Below are positions 7,673-38,144 of a DNA stretch of 64,000 bases, piece after piece. Each line of letters begins with the position of its first letter. Position 1 is the first letter of the stretch. The stretch covers positions 12,586,001-12,650,000 of the forward strand of contig NC_135808.1 in NCBI RefSeq assembly GCF_964213995.1, written 5' to 3'. This stretch comes from Mustelus asterias. Its lineage: Eukaryota. The notes beneath the pieces were generated by a model. It had not been told where the DNA came from, ran no database searches, and saw nothing but the letters and a program-made list of their open reading frames with translations. Both the position numbers and the translations under genes were made by a program.

Positions 7673-9903
7673 CATGATGTGGAGATGTCGGCGTTGGACT
7701 GGGGTAAGCACAGTAAGAAGTCTCACAACACCAGGTTAAAGTCCAACAGGTTTATTTGGTAGCACAAGCTTTCGGAGTGCTGCTCCTTCATCAGGAGAGT
7801 GAGGAGCTGTGTTCACATATAGGGTATATATAGACACAAACTCAATTTACAAGATAATGGTTGGAATGCGAGTCTTTACAGGTAATCAAGTCTTAAAGGT
7901 ATAGACAATGTGAGTGGAGAGAGGGTCAAGCACAGGTTAAAGAGATGTGTATTGTCTCCAGACAGGACAGTTAGTGAGATTTTGCAAGCCCAGGCAAGTC
8001 ATGGGGGTAACAGATAGTGTGACATGAACCCAAGATACCGGTTGAGGCCGTCTTCATGTGTGTGGAACTTGGCTATCAGTTTCTGCTCAGCGATTCTGCG
8101 TTGTGTGTTGTGAAGGCCTCCTTGGAGAACGCTTACCCGAAGATCAGAGGCTGAATGCCCTTGACTGCTGAAGTGTTCCCCGTAAGAAGTTTAACAACAC
8201 CAGGTTAAAGTCCAACAGGTTTATTTGGAAGCAAAAGCCACAAGCTTTCGGAGCCTTAAGCCCTTTCTTCAGGCGAGTGGGAATTCTGTTCACAAACAGA
8301 GCATATAAAGACACAAATTCAATTTACAGAATAATGGTTGGAATGCGAATACTTACAACGAATCAAGTCTTTAAGATACAATGTGAATGGAGAGAGCATT
8401 AAGACAGGTTAAAGAGATGTGTATTGTCTCCAGACAGGACAGCCAGTGAGATTCTGCAGGTCCATGCAAGCTGTGGGGATTACAGATAGTGTGACATGAA
8501 CCCAATATCCCGGTTGAGGCCGTCCTCATGTGTGCGGAACTTGGCTGTCAGTTTCTGCTCAGCGACTCTGCGCCGTCGTGTGTCATGAAGGCCGCCTTGG
8601 AGAACGCTTACCGGAATATCAGAGGCCGAATGCCCGTGACCGCTGAAGTGCTCCCCAACAGGAAGAGAACATTCTTGCCTGGTGATTGTCGAGTGCTGTT
8701 CATTCATCCGTTGTCGCAGCGTCTGCATGGTTTTCCCAATGTACCATGGACCGGGACATCCTTTCCTGCAGTGTATCAGGTAGACAACGTTGGCCGAGTT
8801 GCAAGAGTATGTACCGTGTACCTGGTGGATGGTGTTCTCACGTGAGATGATGGCATCTGTGTCGATGATCCGGCACGTCTGGCAGAGGTTGCTGTGGCAG
8901 GTCCATGCGGCGCCGTGGTCACTGTTCTCCTGAAGGCCAGGGCAGTCTGCCGCAGACAATGGTCTGCCTGAGGTTGTGCGACTGTTTGAAGACAAGAAGT
9001 GGGGGTGTGGGGATAGCCTTGGCGAGATGTTCATCTTCATCGATGAGATGTTGACGACTCCGGAGAAAATGTCGCAGCTTCTCCGCTCCGGGGAAGTACT
9101 GGGCAACGAAGGGTACTCTGCCTGCTGTGTCCTGTGTTTGTCTTCTGAGGGTGTCAGTGCATTTTTTCACTGTGGCGCGTCGGAACTTTCGATCAATGAG
9201 TGGAGCGCCACATCCTGTTCTTATGAGAGTGTCTTTCAGCGTCTGTAGGTGTCTGTTGCGATCCTCCTCATCTGAGCAGATCCTGTGTATACGGAGTGCT
9301 TGTCCATAGGGGATGGGTTCTTTAACATGTTTAGGGTGGAAGCTGGAGAAGTGGAGCATCGTGAAGTTATCAGTGGGCTTGCGGTACAGTGAAGTGCTGA
9401 GATGACCGTCCTCGATCTACAACAACGGATGAATTAATGTCGCTCGGCAATCACCAGGCAGGAGTGCTGTCTTCCTGTCGTGGAACACTTCAGCAGTCAC
9501 GGGCATTCAGCCTCTGATCTTCAGGTAAACATTCTCCAAGGCGGCCTTCACGACACACGACAACACAGAATCGCTGAGCAGAAACTGATAGCCAAGTTCC
9601 GCACACATGAAGACGGCCTCAACCGGGCTCTTGGGTTCATGTCACACTATCTGTAACCTCCACAACTTGCCTGGGCTTGCAAAATCTCACTAACTGTCCT
9701 GGCTGGAGACAATACACACCTCTTTAACCTGTGCGTAACCCTCTCTCCACTCACATTGTCTGTACCTTTAAGACTTGATTACCTGTAAAGACTCGCATTC
9801 CAACCATTATCTTGTAAATTGAGTTTGTGTCTGTATATGCCCTGTTTGTGAACACAGCTCCTCACTCTCCTGATGAAGGAGCAGCGCTCCGAAAGCTTGT
9901 GTT
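7673..9903 (-). mobile_element. Penelope-like element, 5'-truncated: RT C-terminus + GIY-YIG endonuclease with tandem and inverted pseudo-LTRs
   Basis: ORFs 8919-9359 (LHFSSFHPKH..IPYGQALRIHRICS) and 8480-9106 (NVVYLIHC..YIGKT..LRQRMNEQ..VGEHFSGHGH..GLNRD). pLTR copies at 7675-8180 (-), ~8185-8690 (-) and 9420-9902 (+). TSD agctgtttggg; inserted into a SINE. Confidence 0.9.
9862..9902 (+). ncRNA. Minimal hammerhead motif in a Penelope pLTR
   Basis: CTGATGA-A-GGAGC-AGC-GCTCC-GAAAGCTTGTG. Confidence 0.65.
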
Positions 9904-11029
9904 AGCTGTTTGGGGGCACTGAGGGAGAATTTAGCATGGCTAATTCACCCAACCAGCACATCTTTCAGATTGTGGGAGGATTAATACAGAAGAACATATG
10001 TTTAGTTTGCATGTTCAAAAACCACAGAAAGGGTGTCTGCAGTGTACCTGAAAACATATTCACACAGTAAAAAGAGCAATAGATGAAAGAGAGCTCTTGC
10101 TTGTCCCACATATCTACTGAATGTTAATTTCAAATGTGTCGATAACATTCAATAGCAACTGTGCACAGGTCAGAATGTGTAACTTTCAAATAGGGCGTCC
10201 ATTGTTCTGCACACACTTGGTCTAATTATTCCCCTCTCCCCACTCCCCTCCCCCTTTAAATCTAACCCTCCTCCCTCTTTCCTGAACAATAAATGGAAAC
10301 GGGTGGAGAAAACACTAATATCAATGTTGTTGGTCTGGATCGTTGAGTAACAATGACAAAACATATAAATACCGCAGATGCTAGAAATTGGAAAGAAAAA
10401 TATAATGTTAATGAAAGGTTAACTCTAAAATGTTAACTCTGTCTTCACATAGATGGCCAGACCTGCTGGGTATTTCCAATATCTTCTGTTTTTTGTTATT
10501 GCTGAGTGAAGAAAGTATGTTTCGCTGTTTGTCTCCTTCCAACTCATTGTCAAGAGTCACTCTGGGATTTTCTTAGGGTGGCATGGTGGCGCTGCTGTCT
10601 CACAGCGCTAGGGACCCGGGTTCAATTCCAGCCTCGGGTCACTGTCTGTGTGAAGTCTGCACATTCTCCCCGTGTCTGCTTGGGCTTCCTCCAGGTGCAC
10701 CGATTTCCTGCCACACTCCAAAGACGGATTGGCATGTCAAATTGCCCCTTAGTGTCAGGGGGATTAGCAGGATAAATACATGGGGTTACAGGGATAGGGC
10801 CTCAGTGGGATTGTCGTCAGTACAGGCTTGATGGGATGAATGGTCTCCTCTGCACTGTGGGGATTCTATGAATTTGCTCTGAGCTCTGTTTGAAGGAAAT
10901 CTGTATGCATATCCATTTTGTATCTGTTTACTTGCAATTCAATGTAGCCGTGTTCCCTTCAGACACGGAAAGGAGCAAATGCAAGAAACAGCAAATGCTG
11001 CAATTGTAACAAAGATTCACCATGTCTAT

Positions 11030-13989: not shown

Positions 13990-14965
13990 CACGGTAGATT
14001 GGAGGGTGGCAAATGTTGTGTCTTTGTTTAAAAAGGGCTGCAGTGAAAAGCCTGGGAACTACAGGACGGTGAGCCTCACATATGTAGTGGGCAAGTTGTT
14101 GGAAGGTCATAGTCATAGAGTTTTACAGCATGGAAACAGGCCCTTCGGCCCAACCTGCCTATGCCGCCCTTTTTTAAAAAATCTCAGCTAATCCCAATTG
14201 CCTGCATTTGGCCCATATCCCTCTTACCCATGTAATTGTCTAAATGCTTTTTAAAAGACAAAATTATACCCACCTCTACGACCACCTCTGGCAGCTTGTT
14301 CCAGACACCATCCTGTGTGTGAAGAAATTGCCCCCTGGACACTTTTGCATCTCTCTCCTCTCACCTTAAACCTATGCCCTCTCGTTTTAGACTCCCCTAC
14401 CTTTGGGAAAAGATATTGACTATCTCGCTGATTTATGCCCCTCATTATTTTATAGACTTCTATAAGATCACCCCTCAGCCTTCTACGCTCCAGAAGAAAA
14501 AGGTCCCAAACTATCCAACCTCTCCTTATAACTCAAACCATCAAGTCCCGATAACATCCTAGTAAATCTTTTCTGCACCTTTTCTAGTTGAATATCATCC
14601 TTTCTATATTAGGGTGACCAGAACTATACACAGTATTCCAAGTGTGCCCTTACCAATGCCTTGTACAACTTCAACAAGACGTCCCAACTCCTGTATTCAA
14701 TGTTCTGACCAATGAAACCAAGCATGCTGAATGCCTTCTTCACCACTCTGTCCACCTGTGACTCCACTTTCAAGGAGCTATGAACATGTACCCCGAGATC
14801 TCTTTGTTCTGTAACTCTCCCCAACGCCGACATTAACTGAGTAAGTCCTGCCCTAGTTCTATCTACCAAAATACATCTAAATTAAACTCCATCTGCCATT
14901 CGTCAGCCCACCGACCCAATTGATCAAGATCCCGTTGCAATCCGAGATAACTTTCTTCACATCCA
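13990..14965 (-). mobile_element. CR1 fragments (mainly minus strand)
   Basis: ORFs 14251-14445 and 14624-14869. Confidence 0.8.
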
Positions 14966-15300
14966 TGGAACCACATCCAACTCCCCCTTTCACACACACT
15001 GAACCCCACCCAACTCCCCCTTTCTCACACACTGAACCCCATCCAACTCCCCCTTTCACACACACTGAACCCCACCCAACTCCCCCTTTCTCACACACTG
15101 AACCCCATCCAACTCCCCCTTTCACACACACTGAACCCCACCCAACTCCCCCTTTCTCACAGACTGAACCCCATCCAACTTCCCCTTTCACACAGACTGA
15201 ACCCCATCCAACTCCCTTTCACACACACTGAACCCCATCCAACTCCCCCTTTCACACACACTGAACCCCATCCAACTCCCCCTTTCACACACACTGAATC
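14965..15300. repeat. 33-bp minisatellite (actgaaccccatccaactccccctttcacacac), ~10 copies
   Basis: Direct tandem units; these generate the spurious TEPHPTPPFTH ORF. Confidence 0.95.
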
Positions 15301-15366
15301 CACAAGTCCCCACAAGAGACAAACAAGCTCCAAGTTGATAAATAAGACATTGCACCCCATCTTGGG

Positions 15367-15395: not shown

Positions 15396-15399
15396 GGGT

Positions 15400-16905: not shown

Positions 16906-16920
16906 TTTCACAAAAAGAAT

Positions 16921-17993: not shown

Positions 17994-18029
17994 TCATACT
18001 TCCAGGTCAGCACTCCTGGATTTTGGCTC
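17994..18029 (-). CDS. Exon 6, C-terminus EPKSRSADLEV*
   Basis: Strong polypyrimidine acceptor (ctttctctctttttttctgtAG), phase 0, TGA at 17996-17994. Confidence 0.7.
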   Translation of the reverse strand, partial: EPKSRSADLEV

Positions 18030-21000
18030 CTACAGAAAAAAAGAGAGAAAGGGGATTAAAATGTCTGCAAATGGCAGAAAAGCCTGATTTTTTTGATACA
18101 AAAATGAAGAAAAGCACAGTTCTAACAGTTGGTGACTTGCATTTGATTGTTCTTTGTACATTAGGTTTAAGGCTCCCCTCCCCCTTCAGAAAAAGCTAAT
18201 GGCCAAGATATTCTTGTAAACCATGTCATCATCACCCCATCTAACAATATGCCTTTTTTATGGACTCCACAATAATTCATGTATTTATTGCATTTTATCT
18301 CTATACATGCAGCACTTTCAGAATTGCCCCACTTGCTAAAGCTTAGGCTCATAAAAGATCATTTACTGCAATATGATAAAGACAAATTGGTTATAAGTTT
18401 ACAGCTTTCTAGTGTTGAATATTTAATCCTCTTGTCTGCCTACATGGAGGGAATTGGTTTTATTTCATTTCACTTTTAGATATTGAACGGGGCTTAACAA
18501 TAAAATATTCCCCATTTAGCTATCGGTCTCTGGTAACAAACCATGACATGGATGCATTCTGACAGTACAGTAGCTAGTGGAGCAGTTCCAGTCTTACAAT
18601 CTTGAAGAGCAATTTCAATTTGTTGCACACTTACAAGAACATTCATTTATAGGAAGGTTTGGAGCAACACATGTATATCTAACTTGTCACTTGCATTTGA
18701 TCAGAATACTTACAGAAATTTCATGTTGCCTTGACACCGGATAGGAGTATGGCTGACGTCCAGTTTTCCATTTCAAATCTGTTGATGGCAATATATAATG
18801 AATCATTTTGAATTAAGTTTATTAGTCACAACTAGGCTTACATTAACACTGCAATGAAGTTACTGTGAAAATTCCTTAGTCGCCACTCCGACGCCTGTTC
18901 GGGTACACCAAGGGAGATATAGCATGGCTCATGCATCTCACCTGCACATCTTTCAGACGGTGGAAGGAAACCAGAGCAACCCTACGCAGACACAGGGAGA
19001 ATGTGCAGACTCCACACAGACAGTGACCCAAGCCGGGATCGAATCCAGGTCCCCGGCACTGTGAGGCAGCAGTGCTAACCACTGTGCTACCCACTAGAAT
19101 ATCAGTCTGCAATTTCCTTCCCCCATTAAAACATTTTTCTTCCAAATTTTACCATACAGTGTACCAAAGTTGAACAACTTGCATGAACACCCATTTCCAT
19201 ATTACTGATCTGCTTATTTTGCTGCCCCTGCTGGAGAGAGGAATGTCCCAGGAACGTTAAGCCCCTTCAAAACGTTATGGCATGGGTCCTGCAGCCACAG
19301 GAATAAGACAGCCAAAAGGAGGAAACGCAGTAAGGAAGATGCAAGGTGAACAACTGGTCACATATTAAACAAAATGTCTTCGACCTAGCAAACAAATGGA
19401 TTCGTTTGGGCCAGGCTGGGCTACAAGAGGAACTTCCATATCGTCTTCACTGCATACGTAAAATTTTGCTTCAGAAATACTAGTTATTTGTACCTGGTTA
19501 AGTCAACCACAACTGAGGACTCCAGTGTTCAGAAATTCTGAGCTTATGAGTTTGTAATTTAAAAACTTACAACTTGGAAACCCGAAAAACTTACAACCAC
19601 CACTTAAAAAAGGTGCAAGAAAACCAAAACCCCTTTCTGTTGAAGACAGGTAGTGAGAGGATACATTAGTGTTGCTTAAATTAACCCCCACTCCTGTTTT
19701 TAACAATCAGTAAAACCTAGTGGATAGTCAAGGGCTAACTGCTAAAGGTACAAAACTCTCAATATGTGCTCATGGAGTGAGTGAAGTCAAAAGTTTCAGG
19801 CAGTCACAATTTATTTCCACTTTGTAGCCATTGCAACAGTTTTAAAATGAAACTCACTGCATCGTCAATACTTACACATGATTACAAGTGCAGCGATGAA
19901 TGCCACCACCACAGTAGAAATTACAATTATTTGTACATTGTTTGCTGGTTCTGATGGCTCACATTCTTTACCTGAAATAGATTTTACATAAACACAGTTT
20001 TAATTAGCACATTAACTGAAAGACTCACTACAACACACAACCACGTTATGGAAAGTAACTAGACATTCAGCCGTGGCATCTTGATTACATCACAACTACA
20101 AGAAATCTTTGGTTCCCAACTTGCACTGCCTGCACCATCTCCGGTACATTTGGCATCAAGACTTTGCTGTCTGAAAACAAATCTCAGCAGCAGATCGGTC
20201 TTCGTAAGACAGCAGGTTACATCAGACAATGCCATGAGAGAACTGCTTTAATCAATACACATGGACGCCTGGAGACCAGTGATCTAATTTCTGAAACTAT
20301 GGCTGCTGCTATAAACCAGAATTGGCACACCAAAGTTGCATTCGTTGGAAACATCTGTTTACACATCTGGACATATATGCACTGTAAGTACAGTAGCACA
20401 GTGATTCGCACTGCTACGTCAGCTCCAGGGACATGGAATCAATTCCAGCCTTGGGTGACTGCCTGTGTGGAGTGTGTACATTCTCCGTGTGTCTGCGTGT
20501 GTTTCCTCCAAGTGCTCTGGTTCCTCCCACAGTCCAAAAATGGGTAGGTTATGTGGATTAGCGGGGTAAGTGCATGGTGTAACTGGGATAGGATGAGGGT
20601 TGGGCTCGAGTCGGAGTCAGACTCAAAAGTCCAAATGGCCTCCTTCTGCACTGGAGGGATTCAAATGCTGTTAGCATTCTCTGTCCATTAATTTGTAAGC
20701 ATTAATGAGCAAGTCATTTGTATGTGTCACTTTGTGAACCAAGCTCTGATGATCTGATGCTGAAAGAATCGGTGTCGTAGTTTCAGGGCATTCCATTGTC
20801 TGCTCAATGGAACAAAGGACAAAGAAAATTACAGCACAGGAACAAGCCCTTCAGCCCTCCAAGCCTGTACCGACCATGCTGCCTGAATGAACTAAAACCC
20901 TATACCCTTCCGGGGACCATATCCCTCTATTCCCATCCTATTCATGTATTTGTCAAGACGCCCCTTAAAAGTCACTACCGTATCTGCTTCCACTGCCTCT

Positions 21001-24000: not shown

Positions 24001-27000
24001 TTAGTATTTCTGGGTGACTATTAATTGTGTTTAAATAAATATTGTTGTACTAACAAGAAGTCTACTAGCAATTTTGTGTCTACCGTATAAGGGTTAAAAC
24101 AGACTGTGCGGAAGGCACAACAGACTGACTGCATCCTAGCCTTTCAGAACTTGGCTGTGGTGCCCATATAAGGGGGCAGGATTCTGTACCATACAAAAGG
24201 GTGGTGAGGATTATGACCCAGTAAGACTTTTGATTTTGGCCTTCAGTTTAAGGCCGTTCTGCTTGCAAACATGACTGTGGAACCAGCCATAGGGAGAATT
24301 TTATTTCTGGATACATACACTGGTATTTTCAAGAGACACATCCCTCAAGAAGCTCACTAAGGTACGAGAATTATTGCAAAATTTTAAGACTGGTGTCATC
24401 AATGGTTATGCCTGTTGTTTTATCAAATGTGCTTGGGGCTTCCACCAAACATACACAATTTAACAGCAAAAAGTCCTTCATTATGCTGATCTCAACAGCA
24501 TGCAGACCACCCTGTCGAAAATTTAGCTGTTGGATTACTTTCAATTAGTTAGGTCGACTGTGCTTCCCCACATGGATGGCTATAGGATCCCCAAGCAATT
24601 CAAGAGCACTAGAATACTGACAGCTTTTGTGGACTTAACCTCTCACCCCTGAACCCTTTCTTTCTGTCCGTAGAAATAAACTAATCTCCATTCTCCCAAA
24701 TAATCCATCAGGATTCCCACAAGCAGAGGGTTGGATGACTCCTCATCAATATTCCATTGCCCACATTGGGAAGCTTTCCACACTCTGAAGTAAACAGACA
24801 GATTTTTATTTGGGTGCTGCAAGTGTGCATCACCAACCTGTGATTTTCCATCCTGCTCTTCTCTTGTCAGGCAAAGATATTCTTACATTAACACACTATG
24901 AGGGGCGTGCGCAGAGTGGATAACGAGCAGCTGTTCCCCTTAGTTGAAGGGTCAGTCACGGGGGGGGGGGGGGGGTGGAGAGAAAGAGATATGAGGAAAA
25001 ATTTTACTCAGAGGGTGATGACAATCTGGAATGCGCTACCTGGGAGGGTGATAAGAGACGGGTTGCCTCATATCCTTTAAAAAGTACCTGGATAAGCACT
25101 TGGCATGTCATAACATTCAAAGCGCTGGTAGATGGGAATAGGTGGGACGTCAGGTGTTTTTCGCGTGTCCGTACAGACTCAATGGACCGTATGATTCTAT
25201 GATTTTATACCTTTAGCAAGAATGATTTTAATGCACAAGAATACAATATTGAACTTAACTACGAAATGGAATGGGCTTGACTCACCGTAAACAGAAAGAG
25301 TGTTCCAATAAACAGAGGGAGAGAAAGAACAGTTCTTCCTACTAACAGGGTTCTCCATGGTGCAAGTGTAGATCACAAAGTCTAATTTGTCGGCTTTAAA
25401 AATAATCAACGTGCTGTTACTTCGCATCAAGTGATGGCGTTGACTGTTTGTTATCATTCTGCTATCCTTCCACCACAGAATGGAACTTGCTTTCCCCGCT
25501 GGCACTTGACAGGTCAGTTCAATGGTGCCATTCACACAGGTGCCATTGATTGAAGGTTCAGAAAGTGGATCTGCAAGAGAGAATAAGAAAAAGATAAAAC
25601 TGGACTGACCATGAGGACTTCACTCCTTCACCTCAAGTTTGTGTAGTCCATAGAACTCTGTCCTTCACAGGTACCTCACTACATCAGTTCTGAACTGAAC
25701 TTCTCATGCCATAATTCTCCAACATAAAGGCAGTCAGCAGATTAGTTGACCAAGGGCACTATGGTGGCATGGCAGTTAGCACTGCTGCCTCACAGTGCCA
25801 GAGACCTGGGTTCGACTCCTGGCTTGGGTCACTGGCTGTGTGGAATCTACACGTTCACCTTGTGTCTGCGTGGGTTTCCTCCCACAGTCTGAAAGATGTG
25901 CTGGTTAGATGCATTGGCCATACGAAATTAACATAAGAACTAAGAGCAGAGGTAGGCCATTTGGCCCCTCAAGCCTGCTCTGCCATTCAACAAGATCATG
26001 GCTGGTCTTTTCATTGACTCAGCTCCATTTACCCACCCGCTCACCATAATCCTTAATTCCTTCACTGTTCAAAAATCTCTCTTTGCCTTAAAAACATTCA
26101 ATGAGGTAGCCTCAACTGCTTCACTGGGCAGGGAATTCCACAGATTCACCACTCTGTGTGTGAAGAAATTCCTCCTCATCTCAGTCCTAAATCTATTCCC
26201 CCTTGTTTTGAGGCCATGCACCCCAGTTCTGGTTTCACCTGCCAGTGGAAACAAGCTCCCTGCTTCTATCTTATCTATTCTCTTCATAATTTTATATGTT
26301 TCTATCAGATTTCCCCCCCTCAGTCTTCTAAATTTCATTGAGTTTAGTCCCAGCTACTCAGTCTCTCTTCGTAAGCCAACCTCAACTCCAGGATCAACCT
26401 AGTGAATCTCCTCCGCACCCTCTCCATTGCCAGTATATCCTTTCTCAGGTAAGGAGACCAAAACTGTACACAGTACTCCAGGTGTGGCCTCACCAGCACC
26501 TTATACAGCTGCAACATAACCTCGCTGTTTTTATACTCCATCTCTCTTGCAATGAAGGACAAAATTCCATTTGTCTTCTTAATTACTTACTGCACCTGCA
26601 AACCAACTTTTTGCGATCCAGGTCCCACTGCACAGCAGCATGCTGCAATTTTTTTACCACTTAAATAATAGTCCATTTTGCTATTACTCCGACCAAAATG
26701 GATGACCTCACATTTACCAACATTGTACTCCATCTGCCAGACCCTTGCCCACTCAAACTATCTATATCCCTTTACAAACGTTCAATGTCCTCTGCACACT
26801 TTGCTCTACTACTCATCTTAGTGTTATCTGTGAACTTTGACACACTACAGTTGATCCCCAACTCCAAATCATCTATGTAAATTGTAAACAATTGCAGTCC
26901 CAACACTGATCCCTGAGGCACACCACTAGTCAGATCGCCAACCAGAAAAACACCCATTTACCCCCACTCTTTGCTTTCTGTTGGTCAACTAATTCTCTAT

Positions 27001-30000
27001 CCATGCTAATACATTACCCATAAGACCATGCACCGTTATCTTATGCAGCAGCCTTTTGTGTGGCACCATGTCAAATGCCTTCTGGAAATCCAGATACACC
27101 ACATCCACTGGTTCCTGTTGCCCACCGCGCTCATAATGTCCTCAAAGAATTCCACTAAATTAAACATGACCTGCCTTTCATGAACCCATACTGCGTCTTC
27201 CCAATGGGACAATTCATATCCACAGATATCTCATTATTTCTTCCTTGATAGATTCAAGCATTTTCCCCACCACAGAAGTTAAGCTAACCAGCCTATAGTT
27301 ACCTGTCTTTTGTCTACCTCCTTTTTTAAACAGTGGCGTCACATTTGCTGTGTTCCAATCTGCCACCCAGATTCCAGCGAAATTTGGAAAATTACCACTA
27401 GTGCACTTGCTATTTCCCCCGCCATCTCTTTTAGTACCCTGGGATGCATTCCATCAGGGCCAGGAGACTTGTCTACCTTTAGCCCCATTAGCTTGCCCAA
27501 CACTGCTTCTTTAGTGATAATGATAGTTTCTAGGTCCTCATCTGCCATCGCCTTCTTGTCACCAATTTCTGTCGTGTTATTTGTGTCTTCCACTGTGAAG
27601 ACCAACACAAAATACCTGCTCAATACCTCTGCCATTTTCTCATTTCCCATTATTAATTCCCCCTTCTCATCCTCTGAAGGACCAATGTTTCGCTTAGCCA
27701 CTCTTTTTTCTCATATATTTGTCAAAACCTTTTCTACCTGTTTTAATATTCTGACTGAGTTTACTCTCATAATCTATCTTACTTTTCTTTATAGCTTTTT
27801 TCATAGCTGTCTGTTGACCTTTAAAGATTTCCCAATCCTCTAGTTTCCCACTATTCTTTGCCACTTTCTTTCAAATTGACACCCTCCTTTATTTCCTTAG
27901 ATATCCATGGCTGATTATCTCTTTTTCTACTGTCCTTCCTTATCACTGCTGAGCACTGTGAAAAATTGCTTTGAAAGTCCTCCACTGTTCCTCAATTGTC
28001 CCACCATAAAGTTTTGCTCCCAGTCTACGTGGGCCAACATCCCCCCTCATCCAATTGTAGTCTCCTTTGTTTAAGTACAAGAGATTGGTTTTGATTTTAC
28101 CTTTTCACGCTCCGTTTGTATTTTAAATTCAACCATACTGTGATCGCTCCTTCCGAGAGGATCCCCAACTGTGAGATTGTTAATTATTCCTGTCTCATTA
28201 CACAGGATCAGATCTAGGATAGCTTGCTCCCTCATTAGGTTCTATTACAAATTGTTTGAGGAAACAATCATGGATGCATTCTATGAACTCCTCCTCAAAA
28301 CTGCCTTGGCCAATCGACTAAAGTCCCCCATGATAATTGCCGCACCATTTTTACATGCGTCAATTATTTCCTTGTTTATTGTTTGCCCCACCGTGATATT
28401 ATTTGACAGCCTATAGACTACACTGATCAGTTACTTTTTTTCCTTACTATTTCTAATTTCCACCCAAATGGACACAACGCTTTTCTCCATAGAACCTACA
28501 TCATCTCTCACTACCAGCCTGATGTCATCCTTAAACATCAGAGCTACACCACCTCCCATACCTTCTTGTGTGTCCTTCCGAATAGTCTGATACCCCTGGA
28601 TTCTCCCTCAGTGTACCTGAACAGGCGTCGGAGTGTGGCGACTAGGGATTTTCACAGTGACTTCATTGTAGTGTTAGTGTAAGCCTACTGTGATACTAAT
28701 AAATGAACTCAAAACTTGATTCCCACTGTCAATCTACTAAACGAAATCCTGTAGTTGCTGGACATCGGATACAAAATGCTCAAAACTTAGTAAATCAGGC
28801 AGTACTTACATAAACTGAAATAGTGAACATTTTACATCCAAAAGGTCACTGGCCTGAAATATATTCTCCGCTTCTTTCTACACAATTGCTCAATTTGTCC
28901 AGCATTTATGCTCAACTGACGACTGAGTGACGTTAATCTATATATAGACTGTGCAAACTACATTAGCAATAATAGTGACAAATTAATTTCCGAGTAGGAC
29001 TAGTTTTTTGTTTGGACCAGCATGTTTGGATAATTTCTCGTGAAAGTGGTGAATTCCTATAAGAGGTTATTTTGGCGTGCTGTGACTAATTAACTTTTTG
29101 GAACAATTCTGCACTTTTAACCAAGGAAAAATCTGGGTGGAAACGAGTGGCGAGAAGGAAATAAAGAGGCTGAATGGGCTGTACAGACTGGATACAGGGA
29201 TAGCGTAACCTCTGGCTTGGCTCACAATGTCAGGACACGGAGTAGGCCATTTAGCACTGAATTTTCTTCACAGAGGCTGTGGAGGCCACGACACTGAATG
29301 TAACTTAAAAATAGATCTCTAGACAGTAAAGGAATTAAGGAGTATGGGGAGAGAGTAAGAGGTAGAGGAACAACCATGATCACACAATGGTGGAGCAGGC
29401 TAAATGGCCTACTCCTGCTCCTATGAGAGGAGGTCACCAGCACAGGCTGGATGATGCCACATTGGAATCATCTTCCTTTTCCATATTAAAGTTTATTTAT
29501 TGATGAGTCAAGTAGGTTTACATTAACACTGCAATGGAGTTACTGTGAAAATCCCCTAGACGCCACACTCCGGCACCTGTTCGGGTACACGGAGGGAGAA
29601 TTTAGCAGGGCCAATTCACCTAACCTGCACATCTTTGGACTGTGGGAGGAAACCAGAGCACCCGGAGGAAACCCACGCTGACACGGGGAGAACATGCAAA
29701 CTCCACACAGACAGTGGCACAAGCCGGGAATACTGTGAGGCAGCAGTGCGAACCACTGTGCCGCCCCTCATCACTACACTGATGTAGTTTGGCTTAGGGA
29801 GCGACAAGCTTCAAGTGGGTCTTTTGCACCTCCTCTGGGATATTTGCAGTGTCTGGTATACGCAGCTTGCATTTCAATTCTTTTGCCTTAGGGATAAGGG
29901 GTTTATAGTTTTGTCTTCAGCAAAAACAACAACCACAAATTCTGTGTCACCTTTCTTAAGTTTGGTACTGAATAATTCATGAGCGGCAACACTTCCAAGT

Positions 30001-33000
30001 GACAAAGCAATTAAACTACTTACCAATGAGTTTCAAAATTCTCCTTCCTCTCAGTTCTCCTCCTGTTGTGATTTTATAAATTCCTTCGTCTCTAGATGTT
30101 ACATTCATTACCGTCAGAGCGCCAGTGGAAACATTATAATATAAACGAGACTTGAACTGTTCATTTGGCTCCTGTTTGGGCAAATTTGGTGCGTAATCGA
30201 AAATAGTAAAAAGGCTTCCACCACTGTCTGTGAACTCCCATATTACATCAATGCTCCTCAGATCTTCATCAATTTTAAGGTCCAGTGAAGGTGATGAACC
30301 AACAGCAGCAAGTACTTCTTCCTGCCCAACTGATTGACAAAACAAAGTAAGTTAAATACTGGCAGTGAAACGTCAAGAAAAACAACAATAAATAACTGAC
30401 TTATTGGGAGCTCAGAACCTGGATTTCTGAGGGTAGAGATTTCACACAGGTTCAGCAATCTGCAACTCTGAAAATAAAGCCTAGTGCTTGGTTTGCTCTG
30501 TTTCAAGCTTCACTAATGCGTGGCAGAAATCTTAATGAATGCTATATTTGTACTGCAAGATGTCAGTGTTCCTCTACTCTCCCTAAATTGACACCTTCCA
30601 GGTAATAAGTGACTTTTCCCCCCAACCTGAACGACTTCACATTTATCCACATTGAACTTTAGTAATTTACCATTCTGTAAGTTTATTGATTTAGAAACAT
30701 AGAAAAACTACAGCACAAAACAGGCCCTTCGGCCCCACAAGTTGTGCCGAACATACCCCTACCTTTTAGGCCTACCTATAACCCTCCATCCTATTAAGTC
30801 CCATGTATTCATCCAGGAGTCTCTTAAAAGACCCTATTGAGTTTGCCTCCACCACCACTGACGGCAGCCGATTCCACTTGCCCACCACCGTGTGTGTGAA
30901 AAACCTCCCCCTAACATTTCCCTGTACCTACCCCCCCAGCACCTTAATCCTGTGTCCTCTCGTAGCAGCCATTTCCACCCTGGGAAAAAGCCTCAGAGTC
31001 CACCCGATCTATGCCTCTCAACATCTTATATACCTCTATTAGGTCTCCTCTCATCCTACGTCGCCTCAAGGAGAAAAGACCGAGCTCCCTAAGCCTATCC
31101 TCATAAGGCATGCCACTCAATCCAGGCAACATCCTTGTAAATCTCCTCTGCACCCTTTCAATCTTTTCCACATCCTTCCTGTAATGAGGCGACCAGAACT
31201 GAGCACAGTACTCCAAGTGGGGTCTGACGAGGGTCTTGCATAGCTGCATCATTATCCCCGGACTCCTAAACTCAAATCCCTCGATTGATAAAGGCCAGCA
31301 CACCATACGCCTTCTTAACCACCTCCTCCACCTGCGGGGCCGATTTAAGAGTCCTATGCACCCGGACCCCAAGGTCCTTCTGCTCCTCGACAGTACCAAG
31401 AGTCTTTCCCTTTATATTGTACTCCTTCATCCCATTTGACCTGCCAAAATGGAACACTACGCATTTATCTGGGTTGACGTCCATCTGCCACTTCTCCGCC
31501 CAGTCTTGCATCCTATCTATGTCCCTCTGTAACTTCTGACATCCCTCCAGACTATCCACAACCCCACCAACCTTTGTGTCGTCAGCAAACTTACCAACCC
31601 ATCCCTCCACTTCCTCATCCAGGTCATTTATGAAAATGACAAACAGCAAGGGTCCCAGAACAGATCCCTGGGGACCGACCTCCATTTAGAAAAAGATCCA
31701 TCTATACCCACTCTCTGCCTCCTTTGGGCAAGCCAGTTCTGGATCCACAGGGCAACAGCCCCTTGGATCCCATGCCCTCTCACTTTTTCAAGAAGCCTTG
31801 CATGGGGGACCTTATCGAACGCCTTGCTAAAATCCATATAAACCACACCCACCGCTTTCCCTTTGTCAATGTGTTTAGTCACATTTTCGAAGAACTCCAC
31901 CAGGCTCGTAAGGCACGATCTGCCTTTGACAAAGTCATGCCGAGTATTCTTGAGCATACTAAACCTCTCTAAATGCTCATAAATCTTGTCCCTCAGGATC
32001 TTCTCCATCAGCTGACCAACCACTGAGGTTAGACTGACCGGTCAGTAATTTCCTGAGCTATCCCTATTCCCCTTCTTGAAAATAGGAACCACATCCGTAA
32101 TCCTTCGGCAACCTCTCCCGTCTCCATCGACGACACAAAGATCATCACCAGAGGCTCTGCAATCTCTTCCCTCGTCTCCCACAGTAACCTGGGGTACATC
32201 CCATCCGGACCCGGCGACTTATCTATCTTGATGCCATTCAAAGATTCCAGCACAACCTCTTTGTTAAAGTCCACATACTCAATCTTTTCAGTCCACCGCA
32301 TGCCCGCAGTACATCCACCCAGGTCCTTCTCCTCTGAAAACCGAGACAAAATACTCATTAAGCACCTCTGCCATTTCTACTGGTTCCGTACAGATTTTTC
32401 CGCCTTCACCTTTTATTGGCCCTATTCCTTCACGTCTCATCCTTTTACTCTTCACGTATTTATAGAACGCCTTAGGGTTTTCCTTAATCCCACCTGCCAA
32501 GGCCTTCTCGTGACCCCTTCTGGCTCTCCTAATTTCCTTCTTTAGTCCCTTCCTACAAGCCGTATACTCATCTAGATCCCTATCTTCGCCAAGCTCTCTG
32601 AACCTTTTGTACGCTTTCCTTTTCTTCTCGACTAGGTCCCGCACAGCTTTCGTGCACCACGGTTCCTTTAACCTACCAACTCCTCCCTGTCTGCTCGGAA
32701 CGTTGTCCTGCAGAACTCTCGACAGACATTCCTTGAAAAACTGCCACGTCTCTTCAGTACATTTCCCCGAGAATACCTCCTTCCAATTTACTCCTCTAAT
32801 TTGCTGCCTTATGCCTTCATATTTCCCCTTACTCCATATAAACGCTTTCCTAGCTTGCCTGATCCTCTCTTTTTCCAATGCAAGCATAAAGGAATAGAGT
32901 TATGACCGCTATCCCCAAGATGCTCTCCCACTGAGAGATCTGACACCTGTCCAGGTTCATTGGTCAGTATCAGATCAAGTACAGCCTCTCCTCTTGTAGG

Positions 33001-36000
33001 CTTGTCCACATGCTGTGTCAGGAAACCCTCCTGAGCACACCTAACCAACTCCTCCCATCCAATCCCCTTACCCGAGGGAAAAATCCAATCTATGTTTGGG
33101 AAATTAAAGTCTCCCATCACAACAACTCTGCTATTATTGCAACTCTCCAGGATCGGTTTCCCTATCTACTCCTCCACCTCCCTGTTACTATTGGGCGGCC
33201 TATGCAATTATTTAACTTCAGTACATCCGCAGCATAATTTTTAAACTTCAGTACAACATCGTCAGCATAATTAAACTTCACGTTTTATAAATATGAAAAT
33301 CTGTGTTCTGAAGTAATTAAGGAAAAACAGTTACACAGTTTACAGCTAAATCCTCCACATCAGACGAAGACACAAATCTCAGTGAAATCCCCTCTCTGCA
33401 GCCCATGACATTTTACATTTCTCTGTAGAAAGGTGGCTGCTGCGCCGGCCCTGACAAAGATGGCGATGTTAGAATCATAGAATCCTACAGTGCAGGAAGA
33501 GGCCATTTGGCCCATCGAGTCTGCACCGACCACAATCCCACCCAGGTCCTATCCACATATCCTCACATATTTACCCACTAACCACTCTAACCTATGCATC
33601 CCGAGACACTAAGGGGCAATTTTATCATGGCCAATAAACCGTTGCAAAACGACAGATCCAAAAGTTACAAAGTGCAAAAAATGAATCATTTTTACAGTAC
33701 AATACAGTGCTTATTTACAAAACATTACACTCATTACTTAAAACTATGTACATACATCAGAGTTTACTGTGTGCTGTTATTTTTCAGATTAGCACACAGT
33801 TACGCAGGCCGAGGGTATTCTGCAGTTACCGGGCCCTCGGTGGAGACGCTTTACACGGTGGCCTTTCCCCATTGTGCCTTTGCGGCGGCTGCCCAAAGCT
33901 TGAACGCGTCCCTGAGCACGTAGTCCTGGACCTTGGAATGTGCCAGTCTGCAACACTCGGTCGAGGACAATTCTTTCAGCTGGAAGATCAGCAAGTTTCG
34001 GGCGGACCAAAGCGCGTCCTTCACCGAGTTGATGACCCTCCAGCAGCAGTTGATATTTGTCTCCGTGTGCGTCCCCGGAAACAGCCCGTAGAGCACAGAG
34101 CCCTGCATCACCGAGCTGCTCGGGACGAACCGCGACAAATACCACTGCATCTCACTCCAGACCTTCTTTGCAAAGGCACATTCCACAAGGAGGTGTGCGA
34201 CCGTCTCATCAGCCCCGCAGCTGCTTCGAGGGCAGCGTGCGGTGAGGTTGAGCCCTCGGGCGTGCATAAAGGATCTGACGGGGAGTGCCCTTCTCACCAC
34301 CAGCCAAGCCAGGTCTTGGTGCTTGTTTGTGAGTTCTGGTGATGAGGCATTCTGCCAAATGACATTGACAGTCCGCTCAGGGAACCATCCGACAGGATCC
34401 GCCATCTCCTTTTCTCTCAGGGCCTCAAGGACATTACGTGTTGACCACTGCTTGATAGCCATGTGGTCAAAGGTGCGTTTCCGGAAGAATTTCTCCACGA
34501 AGGACAGGTGCTGCGGTACGGTCCAACTACTTGGAGCTTTCATAGAATCATAGAAACCCTACAGGACAGAAAGAGGCCATTCAGCCCATCAAGTCTGCAC
34601 CGACCACAATCCCACCCAGGCCCTACCCCCATATCCCTACATATTTTACCCGCTAATCCCTGTAATCTATGCATCCCAGGACACTAAGGGGCAATTTTAG
34701 CATAGCCAATCAACCTAACCCGCACATCTTTGGACTGTGGGAGGAAACCGGAGCACCCGGAGGAAACCCACACAGACATGAGGAGAATGTGCAAACTCCA
34801 CACAGACAGTGACCCAAGCCAGGAATCACGCTGTTTTGTTTCTTAAAGACTTGATTAGTTGTAAGTATTCGCATTCCAACCATTATTCATGAAAAAATGG
34901 AGTCTGTGCCTTTATATGCCCTGTTTGAGAACAGAATTCCCACTCACCTGAAGAAGGGGCTTGGAGGTCCGAAAGCTTGTGTGGCTTTTGTCAACAAATA
35001 AACCTGTTGGACTTTAACCTGGTGTTGTTAAACTTCTTGCTGTGAAGCAGCAGTGCTAACCACTGTGCTACCGTTCCGCGGCAATGTGGCCAGACCCATC
35101 CTCCGCAACACTTGGGACAGGTAGAACCTCAAAAAATAGTGGCACTTGTTGTTAGCGTACTGAGGATCTACACACAGCTTGATGCAACCGCACACAAAGT
35201 GGCCATCAGGATGAGGACGGCGTTGGGAACGGTTTTCCCTCCGTTCTCTGGAGATTTGTGCATCGCCTCCCTCCGGACACGATCCATCTTTGATCTCCAG
35301 ATAAATTTGAAGAAGGCCTGCGTCACTGCTGCTGCGCAGGATTTGGGGATGGGCCAGACCTGCGCCACGTACAACACGGACAGTGCCTCTCACCAGATGA
35401 CCAGGTTTTTCCCAGTGATAGAGAGGGAGCGTTGCTCCCACAATCCCAATTCTTGTCTGGCTTTGGCGATGTGCTCCTCCCATTTTTTGGCGCATGCCCC
35501 TGCCGCTCCAAACCATATCCCCAGCACCTTGAGGTAGTCTACCCTGACGGTGAAGAGGACAAAGGATGTGTCAGGCCAGTTCCCAAAGAACATGACCTCG
35601 CTCTTACCCTGGGTGACTTTGGCCCGAGGCCAGCTCGAACTGCTCACAGACTTGAAGGAGCCTGCGAACAGACGAGGGGTCCGAGCAGAAAACAGCCACG
35701 TCATCCATGTACAGGGAGGCTTTGACTTGCGTCCCTCCGCTGCCTGGGATTGTAACCCCTTTGATGCCTGGGTCGCTTCTGAGGGCCTCGGCAAAGGGTT
35801 CAATGCAACACACAAAAATGACGGAGGAGAGGGCAGCCCTCTCTGACTCCAGACCTGATCTGAAACATATCTGATTCCCACCCGTTGATTGAAACTGCGC
35901 TACTGATGTCTGTGTAGAGCAGTTGGATCCAATTGCGGATTCCCTTCCTTAAGCCCATTTTGGAGAGCACATCCATCATGTAGCTGTGCGATATTCTGTC

Positions 36001-38144
36001 AAACGCCTTCTCCTGGTCTAGACTGATGAGGCAGGTGTCCACCTGCCTGTCCTGCACATAGGCGATCGTATCCCTGAGTAGCACGAGGCTATCAGATATC
36101 TTCCTGCCGGGTACAGCACAGATCACTGACCCCAGAGCAGACTTGACCCAGTTGCGATGACTTTGGCCAGAATTTTATAGTCCACGTTCAACAGTGAAAT
36201 GGGTCTCCAATTTCTAATTTCTTCCCTTTCCCCCTTCTGCTTGTAGATGAGGGTAATGATGCCTTTCCTCATGGATTCTGACATGCTGCCTTCCAGAAGC
36301 ATACTCTCGTATACTTCCAGGAGGTCCGGGCCCGTCAAGTCCCACAACGCCAAGTAAAACTCAGCCGGTAAGCCATTGCTTCCGGGAGTTTTATCCTTTT
36401 GAAGGGACTCGACGGCCTTTGTCAGCTCATCCAGAGCTACCGGTCTGTCCAGGCTCTCCCGCTCGCCGTCGTCCAAGACCTCCGTGATAGACAACAGGAA
36501 AGACTGGGAGGCCGTGCTGTCTGTTGGCTTCAGGTCATACAGTCCGGCATAGAAGGATTTGCATATTCTCAGAATGTCAGACTGCGATGTCAGACTCCGC
36601 AATTAAGTTACTGTAAAAATCCCCTCGTCGCCACACTCCGGCGCCTGTTCGGCTACACTGAGGGAGAATTTAGGATGGCCAATGCACCTTGATGTGGAGA
36701 TGCCGGCGTTGGACTGGGGTAAACACAGTAAGAAGTCTCACAACACCAGGTTAAAGTCCAACAGGCTTATTTGGTAGCACAAGCCACCAGCTTTCGGAGC
36801 GCTGCTCCTTCATCAGGTGAGTGGGAGTTCTGTTCACAAACAGGGCATATATAGACACAAATTCCATTTACAAAATAATGGTTGGAATGCGTGTCTTCAC
36901 AGGTAATCAAGTCTTAAAAGGTACAGACAATGTGAGTGGAGAGAGGGTTAAGATGTGGAGGAATTAAGGGCTATGGGGAGAGAGCGGGTAAATGGAGTTG
37001 AAATCAACCATGATTGAATGGTGGAGTGGACTCGATGGGCCGAATGGCCTTACTTCCGCTCCTATGTCTTATGGTCTTATGGAGATGCCGGCGTTAGACT
37101 GGGGTAAACACAGTAAGGAATCTAACAACACCAGGTTAAAGTCCAACAGGTTTATTTGGTAGCAAACACCACTAGCTTTCGGAGCGCTGCTCCTTCATCA
37201 GGTGAGTGGGAGATCTGCTCATAAGCAGCAAACAAGGCATATATAGACACAAACTCAATTTACAGAATAATGAATAATGATTGGAATGCGAGTCTTTACA
37301 GCTAATCAAGTCTTAAAGGTACAGACTATGCGGGTGGAGAGAGGGTTAAGCACAGGTTAAAGGATGTGTATTGTCTCCAGCCTGCTCAGTTCAGACTAAA
37401 CTTGCGTCAAGATGGCTGCTGCGCCTGCGCAGTTTGTAACTCGCCCGTACAAACTCGACGTAGTGAGCGACACTCGACCGCAGCCCCGAGACCAGCACAA
37501 CACAACACAGCAAAACCATACTTATCTTACCCAAAAGACCAAGAAATAATGAGGGAATTAAACAGCCACTGCACAGAAAAGTAGAGCCGCAAAGCCGGCG
37601 GAATGAGCCTTGGCCAGTTCGGTACAAACGCGGGACTTCACACACGATGTTTACAAAACCTCCTGATCCAGATCCGGCCCCGGTTTGTGTCTGAGGAAGG
37701 GGCCCAGCTGAGCTGAGCTGAGCTGAGCTGCTCACAAGCCCATCCCCTGTTTGTTTGAGCGTCCTGTCTGCTCCGGCAGGGAAAGGGCTGGGCCCCGGCC
37801 CCGGTCTGTCTCTGAAGAGGCGGCGGCGGAGGGCGGGGAGAGGGGCTCACAACCCCATCCCCTGTTTGTGTGACCCACAGTTTGGGAAAACACTGGAATG
37901 TGATTTACTGTGAAAGGAAACCCGGGAGCGGGGCCAACTCCGCTGCGACAACACACTCACTCACTCAAAACAAACTCAATGAGTTGCAGCCACATTTAAA
38001 CATTTCCTACGACGGTTTCCCAGGAATTAAAAAATAATAATTTCTCCAATTGACATCCTTACCTCCCACAGCGATCAGTTCAAAGGTGAGACTGAAGGAA
38101 AAGCAGCTGAGGAACAACATGACGGTGAATAGCGGTGTATCCAT
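17994..38144 (-). CDS. Spliced gene (6 coding exons, 870 nt, 289 aa): CD2/SLAM-family-like Ig superfamily type-I membrane protein (leader-IgV-IgC2-TM-short tail)
   Basis: Exons 38063-38144, 30024-30329, 25286-25570, 19876-19971, 18714-18778 and 17994-18029 all have GT-AG boundaries, and intron phases 1,1,1,1,0 join into one open frame. IgV lacks the B/F cysteines (SLDLKI..VIWEF..DEGIYKIT); C2 has LTC..W..YTCTMENPVS. Confidence 0.85.
18714..18778 (-). CDS. Exon 5, juxtamembrane cytoplasmic segment
   Basis: Acceptor ccatcaacAG, donor |GTAAGT; YLKWKTGRQPYSYPVSRQHEIS places basic stop-transfer residues right after the TM. Confidence 0.75.
18812..19095 (-). mobile_element. V-SINE with alternative tail (representative; similar at 180-462, 13760-13992, 29487-29765, 47715-47970, 52520-52797)
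   Basis: Same head/V-domain but tail gtgtacccgaacaggcgtcggagtggcgact..ttttcacagtaacttcattgcagtgttaatgtaagcctaNttgtgaC(a)ctaataaa. Confidence 0.85.
19876..19971 (-). CDS. Exon 4, stalk plus transmembrane helix
   Basis: Acceptor ctatttcAG, donor T|GTAAGT, 96 nt; GKECEPSEPANNVQIIVISTVVVAFIAALVIM. Confidence 0.85.
20810..21947 (-). mobile_element. CR1 LINE 3' fragment
   Basis: ORF 21137-21943 has RT motifs. Confidence 0.9.
21950..22290 (-). mobile_element. HE1-type V-SINE with CR1-derived tail (representative; similar at 3455-3752, 6365-6690, 10575-10870, 34540-34830, 50291-50700)
   Basis: tRNA-like head (GGTAGCACAGTGG A-box, GGTTCGATTT B-box), V-domain tgcgtgggtttcctccgggtgctccggtttcctcccac, tail gggccgaatggcctcc..(ttctatga)n. 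Confidence 0.9.
22698..24122 (+). mobile_element. Solo LTR (TG...CA, 4-bp TSD GACT)
   Basis: gact|TGTGACC...GCACAACA|gact; internal AATAAA at ~24035. Confidence 0.7.
22916..23545. mobile_element. Penelope pLTR inverted pair (non-autonomous) inside a solo LTR
   Basis: Same pLTR sequence as 7675-8180 in tail-to-tail arrangement, flanked by ccttattt. Confidence 0.8.
25286..25570 (-). CDS. Exon 3, IgC2 domain
   Basis: Acceptor tctctcttgcAG, donor G|GTGAGT, 285 nt; DPLSEPSINGTCVNGTIELTCQV..ILWWKD..STLII..DFVIYTCTMENPVS. Confidence 0.9.
25930..28600 (-). mobile_element. CR1 LINE, older subfamily, degenerate
   Basis: KSPGPDGMHPRVLKE, GVPQGSVLG, VRPHLEYCVQFWSP. Confidence 0.85.
30024..30329 (-). 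CDS. Exon 2, IgV domain without the canonical disulfide (CD2/SLAM/CEACAM type)
   Basis: Acceptor tttgttttgtcaatcAG, donor G|GTAAGT, 306 nt; VGQEEVLAAVGSSPSLDL..DVIWEF..QFKSRLYYNVSTGALTVMNVTSRDEGIYKIT. Confidence 0.9.
30695..33200 (-). mobile_element. CR1 LINE (endonuclease C-terminus to 3' end), degenerate
   Basis: MGDFNFPNIDW, LDLILTNEP, DFSKAFDKVPH, KFADDTK. Confidence 0.9.
33640..36590 (-). mobile_element. Tx1-clade LINE, 5'-truncated ORF2 (RT + C-terminal zinc knuckle), interrupted at ~34530-35070
   Basis: NWRPISLLNVDYKIL, SLDQEKAFDRISH, ASLYMDDV, CPRSSCGADETVAHLLVECAFAKKVW. Confidence 0.9.
34835..35040 (+). mobile_element. Penelope pLTR fragment
   Basis: Reverse complement of the 8185-8380 pLTR sequence. 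Confidence 0.75.
36691..37382 (-). mobile_element. Two Penelope pLTR fragments separated by a CR1 tail
   Basis: gatgtggagatgccggcgttggactgggg..caccaggttaaagtccaacagg motif at 36691 and 37081. Confidence 0.8.
37168..37210 (-). ncRNA. Minimal type-I hammerhead ribozyme motif in a Penelope pLTR (best-conserved copy)
   Basis: CAC-CUGAUGA-A-GGAGC(AGC)GCUCC-GAA-AGCU-A^GUG: intact core, 5-bp stem II, palindromic stem III, NUH = CUA. Confidence 0.7.
37390..37960. promoter_or_regulatory. Intronic CpG-rich island with YY1-like and NRF1-like motifs
   Basis: CAAGATGGC 37408-37416, TGCGCCTGCGCA 37420-37431, high CpG density, internal ~120-bp duplication. Confidence 0.45.
37515..37545 (-). pseudogene. 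Degenerate U2 snRNA 5' fragment (duplicate of the 38512 module)
   Basis: TTCTTGGTCTTTTGGGTAAGATAAGTATGGT inside a ~105-bp module shared with 38503-38608. Confidence 0.6.
38063..38144 (-). CDS. Exon 1, signal peptide MDTPLFTVMLFLSCFSFSLTFELIAVG
   Basis: ATG at 38144, hydrophobic leader, phase-1 donor G|GTAAGG compatible with the IgV exon. Confidence 0.75.

What the first reader, a model, noticed from the sequence alone, without database searches (positions are those of the whole stretch)
7673..37210. Array of minimal dimer-type hammerhead ribozymes carried by Penelope pseudo-LTRs
Seen: at least seven copies of CUGA(U/A)GA-A-[stem II]-GAA-AGCU-H^GUG at ~7765-7800(-), 8240-8280(-), 9862-9902(+), 23008-23045(-), 34942-34984(+), 36785-36825(-) and 37168-37210(-). 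Stem II occurs in two versions (GGAGC-AGC-GCUCC and GGGC-UUAAG-GCUC), stem III is reduced to the palindrome AGCU, and an extra A sits between A9 and G10.1. The cleavage-site base varies (A, U, C; a G at ~36788 should be inactive). Established: Penelope-like elements encode minimal type-I hammerheads thought to cleave as dimers, and an A9/G10.1 insertion is known from viroid hammerheads. Inference: tandem and inverted pLTRs supply the dimer partner. Three copies (23008, 36785, 37168) lie sense to the SLAM-like pre-mRNA inside its introns, two of them ~390 nt apart, so they could cleave host transcripts.
Basis: partly seen in the sequence, partly recalled or inferred. Interest (0 to 1): 0.7.

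Follow-up and report, generated by a model that had tools for sequence, protein, structure and literature searches.

The report
Shark Penelope hammerheads inside immune gene
The seven self-cutting-RNA motifs are real but are scattered, mostly damaged end-pieces of a very abundant jumping gene of a known kind, and although the family likely does cut its own RNA, the copies in the introns of this immune-receptor gene are unlikely to matter for the gene.

Summary
All seven hammerhead cores are present (chance 0.12) and lie in pseudo-LTRs of a young Neptune-type Penelope-like retrotransposon. They form no array: 75 such cores occur in 1.6 Mb sampled across the genome (about 3 per 64 kb; P of 7 or more = 0.07). 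The motif matches the published minimal PLE hammerhead, including the extra A and palindromic stem III. Across subfamilies the core is invariant, stems covary and G17 is 0.3%, but individual copies decay neutrally. Only the 37173 copy is flawless. Inverted copies cannot be dimer partners; they bury the motif in duplex RNA. Three copies are sense in introns of a CD48-like gene. The 385-nt pair could form a double hammerhead (the G17 copy as enzyme), but that fold is 13-21 kcal/mol above the minimum, and two near-identical paralogues lack the pair. Genome-wide, 1,594 copies begin at the predicted cut site (controls 161-660), a likely trace of cleavage in vivo. This scan noted the same family and footprint before, in this and other genomes. 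New member of a known kind.

The parts
7673..9904 (-). 5'-truncated Penelope-like insertion: RT-thumb/GIY-YIG 3' part, two partial-tandem pLTRs and an inverted piece (9422-9904, +)
   Evidence: 81-91% to a full-length unit
8483..9416 (-). frameshifted end of the PLE ORF with CX4CxxC linker and VVY..YIG endonuclease motif
7763..7797 (-). hammerhead copy, U17 at 7766; stem I U.U and stem II C.A mismatches; predicted to pair with the inverted arm
8239..8275 (-). hammerhead copy, U17 at 8242; A10.1.C11.1 mismatch; same-strand tandem partner of 7766 (476 nt)
9867..9901 (+). hammerhead copy in the inverted arm, U17 at 9898; stem I U.U mismatch, tail cut off after a few bases
22919..23550 (-). head-to-head inverted pLTR pair in intron 3 of the CD48-like gene; the + copy has a deleted core
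   Evidence: shared by both paralogues
23008..23042 (-). hammerhead copy, C17 at 23011, sense in intron 3; A.G at 2.1/1.1 and G.U at 10.1/11.1
34945..34981 (+). hammerhead copy, U17 at 34978, antisense in intron 1; G.G mismatch in stem II
36690..36952 (-). solo pLTR copy, sense in intron 1 (TATA-like box, hammerhead, mutated AATAAG, tail)
36785..36819 (-). hammerhead copy with G17 at 36788; enzyme half and stem I intact
37080..37391 (-). solo pLTR copy, sense in intron 1 (TATA-like box, hammerhead, AATAAA, tail)
37170..37204 (-). the one fully intact hammerhead, A17 at 37173, 385 nt upstream of the G17 copy
50810..50998 (.). short fold-back pair of pLTR tails with truncated hammerheads
17994..53317 (-). 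CD48/SLAM-like Ig gene: coding exons 53317-53269 (duplicate at 56648), 30329-30024, 25570-25286, 19971-19876, 18778-18714, 18029-17994; GT/AG borders
   Evidence: model inferred from a homologous protein, no RNA evidence

Best explanation
The seven motifs are minimal type I hammerheads carried in the pseudo-LTR of a young, very abundant Neptune-type Penelope-like retrotransposon; the ribozyme is likely kept by selection on the element's own RNA, where it would cut slowly as a dimer (probably protein-assisted), while the copies in this window are likely passengers that decay after insertion. Shown: motif, pLTR context, family size, covariation, neutral decay, tandem full-length units with one hammerhead every 3,097 nt. 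Inferred: in tandem transcripts two AGCU palindromes pair to complete stem III; a cut leaves a 5' end 99 nt before the ORF's ATG; most integrated cDNAs come from uncut (or re-ligated) RNA, a few percent from the cut 3' piece. Inferred unlikely: an effect on the CD48-like pre-mRNA.
For: Full-length tandem units with 893-aa ORF (RVT_1 E 4e-10, CX4CxxC linker, VVY..YIG), 1 mismatch in 3,097 nt between neighbours, hammerhead in each pLTR. 10,160 exact copies of one 28-nt core; 75 PLE-linked cores in 160 sampled 10-kb stretches. Stem I pair 2.1/1.1: C-G 44, U-A 24, U-G 2, unpaired 5 of 75; stem II pair 3: A-U 45, G-U 22, G-C 6; extra base A in 74 of 75; N17 U 45, A 16, C 14, G 0; genome-wide G17 163 vs H17 49,826. 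0 of 11 core columns but 16 of 38 upstream columns differ between four subfamilies; singleton changes 1.2% core, 1.4% tail, 2.1% upstream, not significant (61 of 63 rows). 136 of 143 3' ends near the motif lie 45 or more nt past the cut site. Copies beginning at the cut site: 1,594 vs 422 (-2), 161 (-4), 660 (+6); 44,522 run through. Published description fits (PMC4209133, PMC6765202, PMC11167929).
Against: No cleavage was measured. The 32-nt tail behind the motif is as invariant as the core (0 of 32 columns differ), so conservation could partly serve a promoter or priming role. In the 1.6-Mb sample only 3 of 77 nearby 5' ends fall within 4 nt of the cut site. The flanks of the 1,594 hits were not inspected; about a third of the 100 listed look like fold-back junctions whose break point is uncertain by one base; positions -1 and +1 to +5 were not tested, and the controls exclude different letters. 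In the lizard element the hammerhead was dispensable for insertion in vitro and no RNA-seq ends mapped to the cut site (PMC11167929).
Confidence: 0.82

Rival explanations
1. The 37173/36788 pair forms a cis double hammerhead in intron 1; the G17 copy acts as enzyme on the UA site of the upstream copy and cuts the CD48-like pre-mRNA enough to lower this paralogue's output.
For: Both enzyme halves are perfect, all 20 required pairs are possible, sites are 385 nt apart and sense to the gene. Same-strand partners this close are uncommon (12 of 75 within 3.5 kb, none under 510 nt).
Against: The double-hammerhead fold is 13-21 kcal/mol above the minimum in three spans; inter-copy stem III probability 0.0003 (nearest-neighbour model without core contacts). 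The pair sits in a block absent from two paralogues that are 95-99% alike elsewhere. The two copies are about 90% alike and look like independent insertions. PLE hammerheads are slow even as dimers (PMC4209133); slow intronic cuts did not stop splicing (PMC2995048 passages).
Confidence: 0.08
2. The motif is kept mainly as the folded 5' end of the element's transcript (promoter/initiator and protein-binding structure); cleavage is vestigial or incidental.
For: A TATA-like box lies 35-38 nt before C3 in 6 of 7 window copies; many truncated copies begin 4-16 nt before C3 (28 of 88 cores lack the upstream pLTR); the tail is as conserved as the core; catalytic mutants still insert in vitro (PMC11167929).
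Against: Three different N17 bases spread while G did not; compensatory pairs in stems I and II; excess of copies starting at the cut site.
Confidence: 0.2
3. If the sense pLTRs affect the host gene at all, they do so through their promoter or AATAAA plus GU-rich tail, not through the ribozyme.
For: AATAAA followed by GGTGTTG lies 10-17 nt past the cut site in 23012 and 37174; TATA-like boxes are present.
Against: No RNA evidence; the element's own transcript must read through the same AATAAA to reach its ORF, so the signal is probably weak; 36789 has AATAAG.
Confidence: 0.1
4. Chance matches or a locally selected ribozyme array.
For: 7 copies vs about 3 expected per 64 kb.
Against: Chance expectation 0.12; P(7 or more) = 0.067 from the genome sample; 25 matches in the 214 kb from the window onward; 5 of 7 copies carry helix mismatches.
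Confidence: 0.02

Closest known systems
Minimal hammerheads (min-HHR) in pLTRs of metazoan Penelope-like elements (Cervera and De la Pena 2014, PMC4209133; parts 1-2 of 4 read)
   Same: Type I core, short helix I, unpaired base between 9 and 10.1, G10.1-C11.1, palindromic 15.2/16.2, several sequence families per genome, most copies solitary; reported in fish Xena, Poseidon and Neptune elements.
   Different: Helix II is 5-6 bp rather than 7-8; copy number is far above the 4,000-9,000 given for coelacanth and frog (about 170,000 by extrapolation); no shark family was named in the parts read (supplements not seen).
Neptune-clade EN+ Penelope-like elements (PMC8557442, passages read)
   Same: RT then C-terminal GIY-YIG with CX2-5CxxC linker, partial tandems, inverted 5' copies, tail extension.
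   Different: Nothing essential; clade assigned by the linker motif and vertebrate host, no tree built, so Nematis is not formally excluded.
PAc Poseidon element of Anolis (Frangieh 2024, PMC11167929, passages read)
   Same: Hammerhead near the pLTR-ORF junction; genomic 3' ends at two preferred sites past the ribozyme; uncut RNA is the main template.
   Different: PAc's ORF starts inside the ribozyme, here the ATG is 99 nt past the cut; here a minority of genomic copies starts at the cut site.
Domesticated intronic hammerheads of amniotes (RECK and others; PMC6155905 passages)
   Same: Type I hammerhead sense in an intron.
   Different: Those are conserved across species; these are recent repeat copies, damaged or missing from paralogues.
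Non-LTR retrozymes (bioRxiv 10.64898/2026.07.22.740005; abstract and first part of results read)
   Same: Hammerheads related to PLE pLTRs; present in one cartilaginous fish.
   Different: No tandem head-to-tail small units here; the copies are truncated PLE insertions.

Membership tests
Minimal type I hammerhead of PLEs | Core CUGANGA ... GAAA ... UH | tested here: met
   7 of 7 have the core letters; 6 of 7 have H17; core positions 57-61 of 61 conserved
Minimal type I hammerhead of PLEs | Helix II closed by G10.1-C11.1 with an unpaired base after A9 | tested here: met
   G-C in 68 of 75, extra A in 74 of 75; in the window 5 of 7 keep G-C
Minimal type I hammerhead of PLEs | Short helix I with covariation | tested here: met
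   C-G/U-A exchange at 2.1/1.1 (44 vs 24 of 75, one lineage event); first three pairs kept in 70-74 of 75; broken in 3 of 7 window copies
Minimal type I hammerhead of PLEs | Palindromic minimal helix III | tested here: met
   AGCU; G15.2 61 of 61, C16.2 60 of 61 in copies chosen by flanks only
Minimal type I hammerhead of PLEs | Location in a pLTR | tested here: met
Minimal type I hammerhead of PLEs | Self-cleavage as a dimer | not testable with these tools
   only the indirect genomic footprint
Neptune-clade EN+ PLE | Single ORF, RT followed by GIY-YIG | tested here: met
   893 aa, RVT_1 E 4e-10, YIDD, VVY..YIG; Pfam did not call the endonuclease
Neptune-clade EN+ PLE | CX2-5CxxC linker between RT and EN | tested here: met
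   present in the full-length ORF and the window fragment; absent from Penelope/Poseidon per PMC8557442
Neptune-clade EN+ PLE | RT phylogeny | not tested
   no tree built
Penelope/Poseidon clade | No CX2-5CxxC linker | tested here: not met
   linker present
Domesticated intronic hammerhead | Kept intact in orthologues or paralogues | tested here: not met
   intron-1 pair absent from both paralogues; intron-3 copy shared but damaged in all three
Non-LTR retrozyme | Tandem small units with one hammerhead each | tested here: not met
   copies are separate pLTR insertions with unrelated spacers

The most novel reading that the evidence does not exclude
The shark family's ribozyme cuts in vivo (leaving about 1,600 genomic copies that start at the cut site), and in intron 1 of one CD48-like paralogue two independent insertions complement each other: the uncleavable G17 copy serves as enzyme for the upstream UA site, cutting the pre-mRNA once and tuning this paralogue relative to its two neighbours.
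Probability: 0.07. Interest if true: 0.65.

Novelty: new member of a known kind. Interest (0 to 1): 0.24.

Why it matters
What PLE hammerheads do is still open. This young family (identical tandem units, tens of thousands of near-identical copies, several covarying subfamilies) is good material for a test, and the excess of copies starting at the cut site is a cheap, checkable hint of activity in the animal. The window itself is an ordinary sample of the family; only a measured effect on the CD48-like gene would make the locus special.

Tried and rejected
Rfam scan: no hammerhead hit; minimal forms lack helix III, so this is no evidence against. Pfam missed the truncated PLE fragments. My first label 'Poseidon' was dropped after the linker test. 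'Array' rejected. Inverted copies as dimer partners rejected (strand logic). Host-level selection on the core not seen with singletons; counting doubletons, core is lower than upstream (p 0.001) but not than tail (p 0.45), which I read as sub-lineage variation. End mapping in 1.6 Mb showed no pile-up at the cut site; only the genome-wide counts did. No RNA holder was listed for the V exon, and no RNA evidence on splicing of this locus was obtained. Contigs of four runs of uncertain kind laid on a full-length unit cover all 30 bins but show no ends and no clear spliced intron: no evidence either way. Lunse et al. (dimer cleavage, PMC5785218) was not held; known only through the review PMC6765202. 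A search for 'hammerhead ribozyme' plus 'shark' (20 of 22 listed) showed no paper on shark PLE hammerheads; supplements of PMC4209133 were not read and may list them. That G17 blocks cleavage (UH rule) is recalled, from no call.

Full report
Observation. With standard numbering each reads stem I (5') - C3 U4 G5 A6 N7 G8 A9 - extra A - helix II - G12 A13 A14 - A15.1 G C U16.1 - N17 - stem I (3'). N17 is U (7766, 8242, 9898, 34978), C (23011), G (36788), A (37173). Five copies carry helix mismatches: 7767 (stem I U.U, stem II C.A), 8243 (A10.1.C11.1), 9870 (stem I U.U, 3' cut short), 23012 (A.G at the pair next to the cut, G10.1.U11.1), 34948 (G.G in helix II). 36789 is intact but for G17; 37174 is fully intact. 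Broken extra copies lie near 23482 and 50897-50940. Rfam finds no hammerhead.

The carrier. Every copy lies in one repeat, behind the end of a GIY-YIG-type ORF. A protein search of the genome gave 150 scored matches of 34,113 candidates, several in open frames over 900 codons. One locus (L203) holds head-to-tail units of 3,097 nt that differ at 1 base, each with an 893-aa ORF and one hammerhead; the cut site lies 99 nt before the ATG. The ORF has an RT (RVT_1 E 4e-10), a CX4CxxC linker and a VVY..YIG motif. PMC8557442 (passages) gives that linker for Neptune and Nematis and not for Penelope/Poseidon, so this is a Neptune-type element; no tree was built. The host is a shark by the nearest proteins. 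The 7673-9904 insertion has the typical layout: truncated ORF end, partial tandem, inverted 5' piece.

Not an array. One 28-nt core occurs 10,160 times exactly. In 160 stretches of 10 kb taken at regular positions on 26 chromosomes there were 77 matches, 75 linked to the PLE tail; resampling gives 3.1 per 64 kb and P(7 or more) = 0.067. That extrapolates to roughly 170,000 cores (inference).

Selection acts on the element, not on the copies. Among the 75: pair 2.1/1.1 is C-G 44, U-A 24, U-G 2, unpaired 5; helix II pair 3 is A-U 45, G-U 22, G-C 6; the extra base is A in 74; N7 is free; N17 is U 45, A 16, C 14, G 0 (counts are copies, and each exchange is probably one lineage event). Genome-wide G17 is 163 against 49,826 H17, 0.3%, the level of point mutation. 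To avoid choosing by the motif, copies were also picked by flanks alone: 63 of 126 tail copies had both anchors; 44 intact, 15 core-broken, 4 stem-I-broken. In 61 of these (2 rows with false anchors dropped), 0 of 11 core columns, 0 of 32 tail columns and 16 of 38 upstream columns differ between four subfamilies, while singleton changes are 1.2%, 1.4% and 2.1% (not significant). The C11.1-G12 step is a CpG and accounts for 7 changes in 61 rows.

Dimer partners. Of the 75, 12 have a same-strand partner within 3.5 kb, 39 an opposite-strand one, 30 neither (stretch edges hide some). An inverted copy is antisense in the transcript and cannot supply a core; folding puts the 7767 core and most of the 23012 motif into long duplexes with their inverted arms. 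True cis partners are the tandem units. In the window the same-strand pairs are 8242/7766 (both damaged, about 10 kb past the gene's last coding exon) and 37173/36788.

The host gene. The nearest protein (93% in the V exon) is named CD48 antigen-like by NCBI. It maps to six coding exons on the minus strand from 53317 (duplicated at 56648) to 17994, with GT/AG borders. Two more copies of the gene follow within the next 150 kb. They share the 23012 insertion with the same defects. They lack the intron-1 pair: it sits in a block of about 4 kb between segments that are about 300 nt apart in the next paralogue. In a double hammerhead each enzyme half cuts the other copy, so the G17 copy could cut the UA site at 37173 while its own site stays whole. 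All 20 pairs can form, but the fold costs 13-21 kcal/mol over the minimum in three spans, and the inter-copy helix III has probability 0.0003 (the model lacks core and Mg2+ contacts, so this is not decisive). Published minimal PLE hammerheads were inactive as monomers and weak as dimers (PMC4209133); the lizard one needed the element's protein (PMC11167929); and introns cut by a slow hammerhead were still spliced (PMC2995048, citing Dye 2006 and Fong 2009). A host effect is possible but unlikely.

Does the family cut in vivo? 136 of 143 3' ends near the motif lie 45 or more nt past the cut site, in two clusters, so nearly all copies were made from RNA continuous across the site, as reported for PAc. 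That is about 3.6%, fitting cDNA that ran off a cleaved 5' end. Limits: flanks not inspected, only four positions tested, controls exclude different letters, about a third of the 100 listed hits look like fold-back junctions uncertain by one base, and the 1.6-Mb sample showed only 3 of 77 nearby 5' ends within 4 nt of the site. More truncated copies begin just before stem I, about 30 nt after a TATA-like box, which fits a transcript start there.

Comparison and verdict. The scan's notes hold 1,136 findings with these words in at least 37 genomes, none near this place. It works like, and is, a PLE minimal hammerhead; cleavage itself is untested. New member of a known kind; interest 0.24.

Noticed in passing
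window 38379-38548 (-), partial copy near 37500-37610: Divergent U2 snRNA-like sequence (35.8 bits, below Rfam's cut-off) with a partial duplicate, inside intron 1; the region is also present in both paralogues at 88-90%.
   Followed up: partly
window 53317 and 56648 (-): Exon 1 of the CD48-like gene lies in a 3,331-bp tandem duplication; seen also in the next paralogue (spacing 3,351), but only once in the third.
   Followed up: partly
G000 C8, 150 kb after the window (L208-L222): Two further CD48-like genes in tandem, about 72-74 kb apart, 99% alike in intron 3 but with a poorly matching middle part of intron 1; each has an inverted hammerhead-bearing PLE pair near the V exon that the window's gene lacks.
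   Followed up: partly
pLTR tail, e.g. window 37100-37160 (-): AATAAA followed by a GU-rich stretch, 10-18 nt past the cut site, invariant across subfamilies although the element must read through it to reach its ORF.
   Followed up: no
window 36691-36699 and 36953-36961: A 9-nt direct repeat flanks the G17 copy and matches the end of the element's tail, suggesting a target site chosen by microhomology.
   Followed up: no
pLTR hammerhead flanks: Helix I can extend beyond an internal loop (5-7 further pairs) in three of four subfamilies; the short-tail subfamily lacks it.
   Followed up: partly
window 33851-36602 (-): Broken L1/Tx1-type retrotransposon (zf-RVT, RT pieces) in the block that only this paralogue carries.
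   Followed up: no
window 14923-15349: 33-nt minisatellite, about 13 units.
   Followed up: no
window 45068-45731 (+): Pieces resembling a hAT/SPIN-type transposase (recalled likeness; no Pfam hit).
   Followed up: no
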